DNA of 64,000 bases, taken from the NCBI RefSeq assembly GCF_013167455.1, contig NZ_CP038328.1; one strand, given 5' to 3'. Position numbers: made by a program. The first letter of the stretch is position 1; each line of letters begins with the position of its first letter. Below, in pieces: positions 34,901-37,900 of the stretch. The DNA comes from Escherichia coli O157:H7 (GTDB taxonomy: Bacteria > Pseudomonadota > Gammaproteobacteria > Enterobacterales > Enterobacteriaceae).

Positions 34901-37900
34901 ACCGCTGGCTCTCCACCGGGATGCTGTGTGCTTCCGCGTCGAGTAACGAAACCGGCTATTTAACGCAAAAATTCTCCCGCGCGCTGGGTATGCTCGCGGT
35001 CGACAACCAGGCGCGTGTCTGACACGGACCAACGGTAGCAAGTCTTGCTCCAACATTTGGTCGCGGTGCGATGACCAACCACTGGGTCGACATCAAGAAC
35101 GCCAACCTCGTCGTGGTGATGGGCGGTAACGCCGCTGAAGCTCACCCGGTCGGGTTCCGCTGGGCGATGGAAGCCAAAATTCACAATGGCGCGAAGCTGA
35201 TTGTGATCGATCCTCGCTTTACGCGTACGGCTGCGGTGGCTGACTACTATGCCCCTATTCGTTCCGGTACTGACATTGCTTTCCTGTCAGGCGTATTGCT
35301 GTACCTGCTGAACAATGAAAAATTCAACCGCGAATACACTGAAGCCTATACCAACGCCAGCCTGATCGTGCGTGAGGATTACGGCTTTGAAGATGGCCTG
35401 TTCACCGGCTACGACGCGGAAAAACGCAAGTACGATAAATCCTCCTGGACTTATGAACTGGACGAAAACGGCTTCGCCAAACGCGATACCACGCTGCAAC
35501 ATCCGCGCTGCGTGTGGAACTTGCTGAAACAGCACGTTTCCCGCTACACGCCAGATGTGGTTGAAAACATCTGTGGTACGCCAAAAGACGCGTTCCTGAA
35601 AGTCTGCGAATACATCGCAGAAACCAGTGCTCACGATAAAACTGCCTCGTTCCTGTATGCCCTCGGCTGGACGCAACACTCCGTTGGTGCGCAAAACATT
35701 CGTACGATGGCGATGATCCAGCTGCTGCTCGGTAACATGGGGATGGCTGGCGGCGGCGTTAACGCCCTGCGCGGTCACTCCAATATTCAGGGGCTGACGG
35801 ACCTGGGGCTGCTGTCGCAGAGCCTGCCAGGTTACATGACGCTGCCAAGCGAGAAGCAGACCGATCTGCAAACCTACCTTACCGCCAACACGCCAAAACC
35901 GCTGCTGGAAGGCCAGGAAAACTACTGGGGCAACTACCCGAAATTCTTCGTCTCTATGATGAAGGCCTTCTTTGGTGATAAAGCGACGGCAGAAAATAGC
36001 TGGGGCTTTGACTGGTTGCCGAAGTGGGATAAAGGCTACGACGTCCTGCAATACTTCGAGATGATGAAAGAAGGCAAGGTCAATGGCTATATCTGCCAGG
36101 GCTTTAACCCTGTTGCCTCATTCCCGAACAAAAACAAAGTGATCAGTTGTCTGTCGAAACTGAAGTTCCTCGTCACCATCGACCCGCTGAACACTGAAAC
36201 CTCTAACTTCTGGCAGAACCACGGTGAGCTGAACGAAGTTGACTCGTCGAAGATCCAGACCGAAGTGTTCCGTCTGCCATCGACCTGCTTCGCAGAAGAG
36301 AACGGTTCAATCGTTAACTCAGGTCGCTGGTTGCAGTGGCACTGGAAAGGTGCGGACGCCCCGGGGATTGCGCTGACTGATGGCGAGATCCTCTCCGGTA
36401 TCTTCCTGCGCTTGCGCAAGATGTATGCCGAACAGGGTGGCGCGAACCCGGACCAGGTGCTGAACATGACCTGGAACTACGCCATTCCGCATGAGCCGAA
36501 GTCGGAAGAAGTAGCGATGGAGAGCAACGGTAAGGCGCTGGCCGATATTACCGATCCGGCAACCGGTGCGGTTATCGTCAAGAAAGGCCAACAACTTAGC
36601 TCGTTTGCCCAACTGCGCGATGACGGTACAACTTCCTGTGGTTGCTGGATTTTCGCCGGTAGCTGGACGCCGGAAGGCAACCAGATGGCACGCCGTGATA
36701 ACGCCGATCCGTCTGGCCTCGGTAACACGCTGGGTTGGGCATGGGCATGGCCGCTTAACCGCCGCATTCTGTATAACCGCGCCTCCGCAGATCCGCAGGG
36801 TAACCCGTGGGATCCGAAGCGTCAGTTGCTGAAATGGGACGGCACTAAGTGGACCGGCTGGGATATTCCGGACTACAGCGCAGCGCCTCCGGGTAGCGGC
36901 GTCGGGCCGTTTATCATGCAGCAGGAAGGCATGGGGCGTCTGTTTGCCCTCGATAAGATGGCGGAAGGTCCGTTCCCGGAACACTACGAGCCGTTTGAAA
37001 CGCCGCTGGGAACTAACCCGCTGCATCCAAACGTTATCTCGAACCCGGCTGCACGTATCTTTAAAGACGACGCCGAAGCATTGGGTAAAGCCGATAAGTT
37101 CCCGTATGTCGGAACCACCTATCGTCTGACCGAGCACTTCCACTACTGGACCAAACACGCGCTGTTGAACGCGATTTTGCAACCAGAGCAGTTTGTGGAA
37201 ATCGGGGAGTCGCTGGCGAATAAACTTGGCATTGCCCAGGGCGATACCGTGAAAGTCTCCTCCAACCGTGGCTATATCAAAGCCAAAGCGGTGGTGACCA
37301 AACGTATTCGCACGCTGAAAGCGAACGGCAAAGATATCGATACCATCGGTATTCCTATTCACTGGGGCTATGAAGGTGTTGCGAAAAAAGGCTTTATTGC
37401 CAATACGTTGACGCCATTCGTCGGTGATGCGAACACGCAGACGCCGGAGTTTAAGTCCTTCCTTGTGAATGTGGAAAAGGTGTAACGGAGACGACATATG
37501 GCTTATCAATCTCAAGATATCATTCGTCGTTCCGCGACTAACGGTCTGACCCCCGCGCCTCAGGCGCGGGACTTCCAGGAAGAAGTGGCGAAACTCATCG
37601 ACGTCACCACCTGTATCGGCTGTAAAGCCTGTCAGGTGGCGTGTTCAGAGTGGAACGACATTCGCGATACCGTCGGCAATAACATTGGGGTGTACGACAA
37701 CCCCAATGATTTAAGCGCCAAATCGTGGACGGTGATGCGCTTCTCGGAAGTGGAGCAGAACGACAAACTGGAATGGCTGATCCGCAAAGACGGCTGTATG
37801 CACTGTTCCGATCCAGGCTGTCTGAAAGCGTGCCCGGCGGAAGGTGCAATTATTCAGTATGCCAACGGTATCGTCGACTTCCAGTCCGAGCAGTGCATTG

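What the first reader, a model, noticed from the sequence alone, without database searches (positions are those of the whole stretch)
35020..35065. Selenocysteine UGA and SECIS in fdoG
The fdoG frame passes through TGA at 35020-35022 (...QARV-U-HGPTVASL...) and is followed by a stem-forming segment. This is the expected Sec codon of formate dehydrogenase-O, not a pseudogene break. It is flagged because automated callers, including the provided ORF track, split the gene here.
Basis: established knowledge. Interest (0 to 1): 0.2.

Follow-up and report, generated by a model that had tools for sequence, protein, structure and literature searches.

The report
Selenocysteine codon and SECIS in fdoG
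The apparent stop codon inside this E. coli formate dehydrogenase-O gene is the well-known signal for inserting selenocysteine, followed by the expected RNA hairpin, so it is ordinary textbook biology and not a broken gene.

Summary
TGA at 35020-35022 lies in frame within a 1016-codon reading frame, 34435-37485 on the + strand. A naive ORF list splits this frame into 195-aa and 804-aa pieces.

The gene is fdoG, the alpha subunit of formate dehydrogenase-O:
- It is 100% identical in DNA to E. coli O157:H7 EDL933.
- It is 99.7% identical in protein to K-12 FdoG but only 77% to FdnG.
- It sits in the fdhD / fdoG-fdoH-fdoI-fdhE arrangement.

The UGA aligns with Sec196 of the solved FdnG structure (1kqf).

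The 59 nt at 35017-35075 match Rfam SECIS_3 at 84.3 bits (gathering score 63, E = 1.8e-19). The paired part is exactly 35023-35065. The upper stem-loop starts 11 nt after the UGA. It carries the bulged U17 and the loop bases G23 and U24, at the same positions as in fdhF.

In 72 distinct homologous sequences the upper helix is 100% paired. Two of its pairs show compensatory changes at synonymous codon positions. The element is identical in 5432 of 5433 E. coli records. It is also the longest run of identity (71 nt) between fdoG and fdnG.

This is already known, and interest is low. One correction: RefSeq does not split the gene, but it labels it "fdnG".

The parts
34435..37485 (+). fdoG coding sequence, the formate dehydrogenase-O alpha (catalytic, molybdopterin) subunit. 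It is 1016 aa including Sec196. The N-terminus carries a twin-arginine motif (MQVSRRQFFK).
   Evidence: Translation. 100% DNA identity to EDL933, where it is one CDS. 99.7% aa identity to K-12 FdoG b3894 against 77% to FdnG. NCBIfam TIGR01553 scores 1573 bits against a cut-off of 814. 1kqf_A scores 1901 bits.
35020..35022 (+). In-frame UGA, the selenocysteine codon (Sec196). The next base is C, giving UGAC.
   Evidence: It aligns to X (Sec196) of the FdnG structure 1kqf. In the scan loci where a stop was reached, the frame stays open at least 196 codons upstream (106 cases) and 819-833 codons downstream (73 cases).
35017..35075 (+). Full extent of the Rfam SECIS_3 match (Sec codon plus hairpin plus 3' flank).
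   Evidence: 84.3 bits, gathering score 63, E = 1.8e-19, model positions 1-59 of 59. 100% identical in the best place of 5432 of 5433 E. coli records.
35023..35065 (+). The SECIS hairpin as a whole (lower helix, upper stem-loop and internal loop).
   Evidence: Rfam consensus structure. MFE fold. Pair counts on 72 sequences: 92% of cells paired against 27-56% when the partners are slid.
35034..35051 (+). Upper stem-loop, the inferred SelB-binding part: GGUAGCAAGUCUUGCUCC, nt 15-32 counted from the U of UGA. The bulged U17 is at 35036. The loop bases G23 and U24 are at 35042 and 35043.
   Evidence: It starts 11 nt after the UGA, with U17, G23 and U24 at the same positions as in fdhF (definition in PMC8659212). 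The helix is 100% paired in 72 distinct sequences. Compensatory changes occur at 18-30 (GC 53, AU 14, CG 4, GU 1) and 21-27 (AU 52, CG 17, GC 3).
37498..38400 (+). fdoH, Fdh-O beta (iron-sulfur) subunit, 300 aa.
   Evidence: ORF. TIGR01582 scores 477.5 bits. Annotated fdoH in EDL933 and K-12.
38397..39032 (+). fdoI, Fdh-O gamma (cytochrome b556) subunit, 211 aa.
   Evidence: NF007924 scores 453 bits (cut-off 341). The FdnI model NF007558 scores 243.6, below its cut-off of 339.
39029..39958 (+). fdhE, formate dehydrogenase accessory protein, 309 aa.
   Evidence: NF002925 scores 604 bits. Annotation.
33408..34241 (-). fdhD, divergently transcribed accessory sulfurtransferase for formate dehydrogenase, 277 aa.
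   Evidence: TIGR00129 scores 340 bits. Annotation.

Best explanation
This is the programmed UGA-to-selenocysteine recoding site of fdoG, the catalytic subunit of the E. coli respiratory formate dehydrogenase-O.

Shown here:
- An in-frame UGA at codon 196 lies at the position of the active-site Sec of the paralogue FdnG.
- It is immediately followed by a conserved hairpin of the bacterial SECIS type. The upper stem-loop begins 11 nt after the UGA and presents a bulged U17 and the loop bases G23 and U24.

Inferred from established knowledge of the E. coli sel system (SelA, SelB, SelC, SelD), whose genes lie outside the window:
- The elongation factor SelB, loaded with GTP and Sec-tRNA(Sec), binds the upper stem-loop on the translating mRNA.
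- It delivers the tRNA to the UGA in the ribosomal A site in competition with release factor 2.
- The ribosome therefore inserts Sec196 and goes on to make the full 1016-aa, Tat-exported protein.
- A fraction of ribosomes terminates instead and yields a 195-aa fragment.

Because the hairpin lies inside the coding sequence, it constrains synonymous codon positions. That constraint is visible here as compensatory changes and as extreme conservation.
For: - Frame and codon.
- Alignment of the UGA with Sec196 (X) of 1kqf_A across the full length.
- Same motif with TGA in K-12 fdoG, fdnG and fdhF.
- Rfam SECIS_3 at 84.3 bits against a gathering score of 63, E = 1.8e-19.
- Upper helix 100% paired in 72 distinct sequences from diverse Proteobacteria and a few other phyla. 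Double-sided changes at pairs 18-30 and 21-27, both made of third codon positions. 51 cells with double changes against 13.4 ± 4.9 in shuffles. 92% of cells paired against 27-56% in slid controls.
- G15, G23 and U24 are invariant although the search pattern left them free. G15 and U24 are third positions of degenerate codons (Thr/Ser at codon 13-15, Ser AGY or Gly GGN at codon 22-24).
- The longest identical run between fdoG and fdnG (71 nt, 35017-35087; next longest 36 nt) coincides with the element, against 75% overall DNA identity.
- The 59-nt element is identical in 5432 of 5433 E. coli records. The one variant is a synonymous CAC-to-CAT change that turns a C-G pair into U-G.
- The identical 60-mer is found in 25 other loci from several Enterobacterales genera.
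- In the homologous loci where a stop was reached, the frame stays open 819-833 codons past the TGA (73 cases).
[quoted passage not shown] Definition of the fdhF SECIS (PMC8659212). Recoding efficiency of 30-40% in competition with RF2 (PMC4513850 abstract).
Against: - The folding energy of the 46-nt segment alone is not significantly better than shuffles (z = -1.37).
- The lower helix is only about 85% paired across homologues, and its register is ambiguous. The Rfam consensus register gives A-G and A-C mismatches in the E. coli sequence, whereas the MFE register, with a bulged G44, is fully canonical.
It is not a random or exhaustive sample.
- SelB binding and selenium incorporation were not and cannot be tested here. 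No sel gene or tRNA-Sec lies in the window.
Confidence: 0.97

Rival explanations
1. The TGA is a nonsense mutation or sequencing error, and the gene is a pseudogene split into two fragments.
For: A mechanical ORF list shows two ORFs, 34435..35022 and 35071..37485. The hairpin's folding energy alone is unremarkable.
Against: The same TGA and the following 56 nt are identical in 5432 of 5433 E. coli records, covering 5425 of 5426 genomes. They are also present in K-12 fdoG, fdnG and fdhF. The TGA aligns with Sec196 of a solved structure. A SECIS model matches above gathering. Homologues in many genera keep the frame open for about 820 codons after the TGA. RefSeq annotates one intact CDS.
Confidence: 0.01
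2. The gene is fdnG (nitrate-inducible Fdh-N), as the RefSeq label says, and not fdoG.
For: RefSeq/PGAP names the CDS 'fdnG: formate dehydrogenase-N subunit alpha' in every E. coli record listed. The best NCBIfam model, TIGR01553, carries that name.
Against: The protein is 99.7% identical to curated K-12 FdoG (b3894) and only 77% to K-12 FdnG (b1474). It is 1016 aa, not 1015. Its neighbours are fdhD, fdoH (300 aa), fdoI (211 aa), fdhE, yiiG and frvR, as at the K-12 fdo locus, and not yddG/fdnH/fdnI/yddM. The gamma subunit passes the FdoI-type model and fails the FdnI model. Each genome has a second, separate place, which is the true fdnG. The label comes from one equivalog model covering both paralogues.
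Confidence: 0.01
3. The perfect 71-nt identity between fdoG and fdnG reflects recent gene conversion between the paralogues, not RNA-level purifying selection. On this view the conservation says nothing about a structure.
For: The identity extends about 22 nt past the hairpin, to 35087, and 3 nt upstream of the UGA. A conversion tract would look like this.
Against: The same 60-mer is identical in 25 further loci from several Enterobacterales genera. Across wider taxa the third-position changes in the upper helix are compensatory, while third positions outside the helix (columns 9, 12, 33, 48, 51, 57, 60) vary freely. That pattern fits selection on pairing, not conversion. The two processes are not mutually exclusive.
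Confidence: 0.1

Closest known systems
E. coli fdnG SECIS (Fdh-N alpha subunit, Sec196; structure 1kqf)
   Same: The UGA and the following 68 nt are identical base for base (71-nt identical run, 35017-35087). The codon number (196) and the protein motif NQARV-U-HGPTVASLAPTFGRGAMTN are the same. The proteins align over their full length.
   Different: It is a different paralogue (77% aa, 75% nt identity overall) at a different locus. By established knowledge its regulation also differs: fdo is expressed aerobically and constitutively, fdn is induced by nitrate and anaerobiosis.
E. coli fdhF SECIS (Fdh-H, Sec140), the prototype bacterial SECIS
   Same: A UGAC context. The upper stem-loop starts at nt 15, which is 11 nt after the UGA. 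G15-G16 pair with CC, U17 is bulged, and G23 and U24 are in the apical loop at identical positions. The protein motif is ARV-U-HGP (PMC8659212).
   Different: The fdhF upper stem has 4 bp above the bulge and a 4-nt GGUC loop (17 nt, positions 15-31). fdoG has 5 bp and a 3-nt GUC loop, or 4 bp and a 5-nt AGUCU loop (18 nt, positions 15-32). The lower-helix sequences differ. The window sequence scores only 28.1 bits against Rfam SECIS_2 (gathering 70) against 84.3 for SECIS_3. Which family holds fdhF was not checked.
Rfam RF01989 SECIS_3
   Same: Full-length match (model positions 1-59 of 59), 84.3 bits, above the gathering score of 63.
   Different: In the lower helix the E. coli sequence fits a register shifted by one (bulged G44 instead of bulged C11) better than the family consensus register. 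The consensus register leaves A9-G41 and A5-C45 unpaired.

Membership tests
Bacterial SECIS element (E. coli fdhF/fdnG type; Rfam SECIS_3) | An in-frame UGA inside an otherwise open reading frame, with the hairpin immediately 3' of it within the coding sequence. | tested here: met
   UGA at codon 196 of a 1016-codon frame. The hairpin is at 35023-35065.
Bacterial SECIS element (E. coli fdhF/fdnG type; Rfam SECIS_3) | A score at or above the curated gathering threshold of the family covariance model. | tested here: met
   84.3 bits against 63, E = 1.8e-19, full model length.
Bacterial SECIS element (E. coli fdhF/fdnG type; Rfam SECIS_3) | The upper stem-loop begins 11 nt after the UGA, with a bulged U17 and with G23 and U24 in the apical loop (PMC8659212). 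| tested here: met
   nt 15-32 are GG-U-AGCAA-GUC-UUGCU-CC. U17, G23 and U24 are at the same positions as in K-12 fdhF. G23 and U24 are invariant in 72 sequences although the search pattern left them free. U17 was fixed by the pattern (Val codon).
Bacterial SECIS element (E. coli fdhF/fdnG type; Rfam SECIS_3) | Base pairing is maintained in evolution (covariation). | tested here: met
   Upper helix: 100% of cells paired, and 2 of 7 pairs have double-sided changes (38 cells). Lower helix: about 85% paired, with weaker support and an ambiguous register.
Bacterial SECIS element (E. coli fdhF/fdnG type; Rfam SECIS_3) | It binds SelB and directs SelB- and tRNA(Sec)-dependent Sec insertion at the UGA. 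| not testable with these tools
   This needs biochemistry or genetics. The literature states that fdoG encodes a selenopolypeptide (PMC4009273).
FdoG (formate dehydrogenase-O alpha subunit) | Membership of the Fdh-N/O alpha-subunit family (molybdopterin oxidoreductase) over its full length. | tested here: met
   TIGR01553 scores 1573 bits against a cut-off of 814, covering residues 2-1015. 1kqf_A scores 1901 bits over the full length.
FdoG (formate dehydrogenase-O alpha subunit) | Orthology to K-12 fdoG (b3894) rather than to fdnG (b1474). | tested here: met
   99.7% aa and 98.8% nt identity to K-12 fdoG, against 77% and 75% to fdnG.
FdoG (formate dehydrogenase-O alpha subunit) | Operon context of fdoG-fdoH-fdoI-fdhE with divergent fdhD. 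| tested here: met
   ORFs of 300, 211 and 309 aa lie downstream and one of 277 aa is divergent upstream. The order is the same as in K-12 and EDL933. FdoI-specific model NF007924 scores 453 bits (cut-off 341). FdnI model NF007558 scores 243.6, below its cut-off of 339.
FdoG (formate dehydrogenase-O alpha subunit) | An active-site Sec at the position of Sec196 of FdnG. | tested here: met
   The UGA codon aligns with X196 of 1kqf_A within the identical motif NQARV-X-HGPTVASL.
FdoG (formate dehydrogenase-O alpha subunit) | A twin-arginine (Tat) signal peptide for periplasmic export. | tested here: inconclusive
   The motif S-R-R-Q-F-F-K at residues 4-10, followed by a hydrophobic stretch ending ALA, is visible in the translation and aligns with the N-terminus of FdnG. 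No signal-peptide predictor was run.

The most novel reading that the evidence does not exclude
The least ordinary reading not excluded is this. In Enterobacterales the fdoG/fdnG SECIS is under constraints beyond the SelB-binding upper stem-loop. The whole 60-71 nt segment is frozen: it is identical in both paralogues and in at least 25 loci from several genera. Its lower helix uses a register different from the Rfam consensus. That could mean a lineage-specific lower-stem conformation, or an additional function of the 3' flank (35066-35087), for example tuning the competition between recoding and RF2 termination. Alternatively it could reflect recurrent gene conversion between the two paralogues.
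Probability: 0.1. Interest if true: 0.25.

Novelty: already known. Interest (0 to 1): 0.05.

Why it matters
For biology it matters little, because this is the textbook selenocysteine recoding site of one of the three E. coli selenoproteins.

For the scan it matters as a correct call:
- The in-frame TGA must not be reported as a pseudogene or as two genes.
- The RefSeq label "fdnG" at this locus should be read as fdoG.

The site is also a clean positive control. It shows an RNA structure embedded in a coding sequence leaving its mark as compensatory changes at synonymous positions and as a peak of paralogue identity.

Tried and rejected
1. Folding energy as the sole test. The 46-nt segment folds at -12.7 kcal/mol, z = -1.37 against shuffles, which is not significant. 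I rejected it as a criterion and used the covariance model and covariation instead.

2. The Rfam consensus register for the lower helix. It leaves A-G and A-C mismatches in the E. coli sequence. The alternative MFE register is canonical in E. coli, but its pair 9-42 is unpaired in 52 of 72 homologues. Neither register is clearly better across taxa (92.0% against 91.2% of cells paired). The lower helix is left as weakly supported.

3. The pseudogene reading, rejected on conservation.

4. The fdnG identity suggested by the RefSeq labels, rejected.

5. A search of PMC4513850 for the SECIS nucleotide definitions found nothing. PMC8659212 supplied them.

It was repeated with C at that position.

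7. I looked for tRNA-Sec in the window and found none, as expected, because the sel genes map elsewhere.

Full report
**Observation.** The window has TGA at 35020-35022. Translating 34435-37485 on the + strand gives 1017 codons. There is a single internal stop at codon 196, in the context ...LGMLAVDNQARV*HGPTVASLAPTFGRGAMTN..., and a terminal TAA. That makes 1016 residues if the TGA is decoded. The mechanical ORF list breaks the frame into 34435..35022 (195 aa) and 35071..37485 (804 aa, from the next ATG).

**Identity of the gene.** The stretch 34266-37485 is 100% identical to E. coli O157:H7 strains, including EDL933. It is present in 5425 of 5426 complete E. coli genomes, with a median of two places per genome, because the paralogue fdnG also matches.

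- In EDL933 the region is annotated as one intact CDS. Divergent fdhD, yiiG and frvR lie on one side, and fdoH, fdoI and fdhE follow on the other. This is the same order as at the curated K-12 fdo locus, where the gene is fdoG, b3894.
- The window protein differs from K-12 FdoG at 3 of 1016 residues (99.7% identity). It is 77% identical to K-12 FdnG.
- NCBIfam TIGR01553 matches at 1573 bits. That model is an equivalog named "formate dehydrogenase-N subunit alpha" and evidently covers both paralogues, which explains why PGAP labels this gene "fdnG".
- The gamma subunit discriminates between the two enzymes. The FdoI-type model NF007924 scores 453 bits (cut-off 341). The FdnI model NF007558 scores 243.6, below its cut-off of 339.

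**The residue at the UGA.** With Cys substituted for the stop, the protein aligns over its full length with the crystal-structure sequence of Fdh-N alpha (1kqf_A, 1901 bits). Position 196 falls opposite the X that represents Sec196 in that chain, inside an identical motif. The next best structures are formate dehydrogenases whose depositors call them "selenocysteine-containing". K-12 fdoG, fdnG and fdhF each carry TGA in the motif ARV-U-HGP, at codons 196, 196 and 140. PMC4009273 states that fdnG, fdoG and fdhF are the three E. coli selenopolypeptide genes.

**The RNA element.**
- Rfam SECIS_3 (RF01989) matches 35017-35075 on the + strand over the whole model at 84.3 bits (gathering 63, E = 1.8e-19).
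- The minimum-free-energy fold of 35020-35065 is a hairpin of -12.7 kcal/mol. Its z-score against dinucleotide shuffles is only -1.37, so energy by itself would not be convincing.
- Counting from the U of UGA, nt 15-32 (35034-35051) form GG-U-AGCAA-GUC-UUGCU-CC. There are two G-C pairs, a bulged U17, five further pairs and a GUC loop.
- In fdhF the corresponding element is GG-U-UGCA-GGUC-UGCA-CC.
- Both start 11 nt after the UGA. Both place U17, G23 and U24 at identical positions. These are the features that PMC8659212 gives as defining the E. coli SECIS and its contacts with SelB.

**Evidence from related sequences.** Four lines of evidence agree.

*Within the gene pair.* fdoG and fdnG are 75% identical in DNA overall. 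Their longest identical run is 71 nt at 35017-35087, twice the next longest (36 nt). It comprises 23 consecutive identical codons, whereas only 61% of identical amino acids elsewhere use the same codon.

*Within E. coli.* The 59-nt element is 100% identical in the best place of 5432 of 5433 records. The single variant (O68:H12 strain 97.3) is a synonymous CAC-to-CAT change at nt 6. It turns a C-G pair of the MFE register into U-G.

*Across species.* I scanned one genome per species with a pattern that fixes only the protein-determined bases (TGACAYGGNCCNNNNGTNGCNNNNYTNGCNCC).
- The stretches come mainly from Gamma-, Beta- and Alphaproteobacteria, with a few Desulfuromonadales/Geobacterales and a Terriglobia MAG.
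- In the loci where a stop was reached, the frame is open at least 196 codons upstream (106 cases) and 819-833 codons downstream of the TGA (73 cases).
- The exact 60-mer of the window recurs in 25 loci of several Enterobacterales genera, including Photorhabdus, Yersinia, Providencia, Citrobacter, Klebsiella, Kluyvera and Enterobacter.

*Covariation in the 72 distinct 60-mers (alignment A1).*
- The upper helix is paired in 100% of cells.
- Compensatory changes occur at 18-30 (GC 53, AU 14, CG 4, GU 1) and 21-27 (AU 52, CG 17, GC 3). All four columns are third codon positions.
- Pair 22-26 alternates between A-U and G-U.
- Overall, 51 cells have double-sided changes, against 13.4 ± 4.9 in shuffles.
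- 92% of cells are paired, against 27-56% when the partners are slid by 1-3 columns.
- G15, G23 and U24 are invariant although the pattern left them free. G15 and U24 are third positions of degenerate codons. U17 was fixed by the pattern and by the Val codon, so its invariance carries no weight.
- Third positions outside the helices (columns 9, 12, 33, 48, 51, 57, 60) vary freely.

*Limits of this evidence.* The lower helix is less secure, at about 85% paired. The Rfam register and the MFE register perform about equally across taxa. For the E. coli sequence itself, only the MFE register, with a bulged G44, is fully canonical. The sample is truncated and selected by pattern, so these counts are supportive and not a formal test.

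**Mechanism.**
- *Shown:* a UGA at the active-site Sec position, followed by a conserved, covarying hairpin with the SelB-recognition features at the canonical distance.
- *Inferred from established knowledge of the E. coli sel system:* SelB·GTP·Sec-tRNA(Sec) binds the upper stem-loop and decodes the UGA in competition with RF2. Reporter work on the fdhF element puts recoding at 30-40% (PMC4513850 abstract). A 195-aa termination product is therefore an expected by-product.
- *My own inference:* the base after the UGA is C in all 72 sequences (the His codon), giving the UGAC context that is generally regarded as a weak terminator in E. coli. This was not tested.
- The sel genes and tRNA-Sec are not in the window.

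**Comparison and novelty.** The element is identical to the fdnG SECIS. It is a close structural relative of the fdhF prototype, differing by one extra pair or a different loop size in the upper stem. It is a full-scoring member of Rfam SECIS_3. Nothing here departs from what is known.

RefSeq's pipeline does not split the gene. It does name the gene after the paralogue.

Verdict: confirmed, supported, already known, low interest.

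Noticed in passing
window 34435-37485 (and RefSeq records NZ_CP008957.1, NZ_CP061758.1 and others): RefSeq/PGAP labels the alpha subunit of the fdo locus 'fdnG: formate dehydrogenase-N subunit alpha', while the neighbouring genes are labelled fdoH and fdoI. 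The cause is that NCBIfam TIGR01553 covers both paralogues. The curated K-12 name is fdoG.
   Followed up: yes
window 34266-34464 (+): A sub-threshold match to Rfam RF02778, 'FdoG-1 5' UTR thermometer' (32 bits against a gathering score of 50, E = 2e-6 on the short stretch). Only the 3' third aligns well: the Shine-Dalgarno sequence, the start codon and the first codons. The 5' part aligns poorly, so this may simply reflect homology of the fdoG start region and not a conserved thermosensor.
   Followed up: partly
window 15346-15423 (+), 24268-24338 (-), 40207-40243 (+), 10300-10341 (+), 40161-40203 (-): REP-type intergenic repeats. They score as Rfam naRNA4 (78.6 and 73.3 bits, above gathering; a partial copy follows fdhE) and as ES036/CssrF (40.3 bits above gathering at 10300; 36.8 bits just below gathering at 40161).
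   Followed up: no
window 62811-62879 (-): A match to the enterobacterial sRNA family STnc370 (RF02064), just above gathering (55.6 bits against 54).
   Followed up: no
window 35017-35087 vs K-12 fdnG (L003 1984-2054): The identity between the fdoG and fdnG paralogues extends about 22 nt beyond the 3' end of the hairpin (71 identical nt in all). This is longer than the SECIS itself needs. Gene conversion between the paralogues, or codon preference, could contribute.
   Followed up: partly
E. coli genome search: Seven of about 10,830 matching places for the fdoG/fdnG query lie on plasmids. One of 5426 complete E. coli genomes has no match at all. Strain O68:H12 97.3 has only one place, so it apparently lacks one paralogue.
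   Followed up: no
L045 2250-2281 and 8164-8195 (+): An uncultured Enterobacterales MAG contig carries two Sec-type formate dehydrogenase alpha-subunit UGA/SECIS sites 5.9 kb apart on the same strand, with slightly different SECIS sequences.
   Followed up: no
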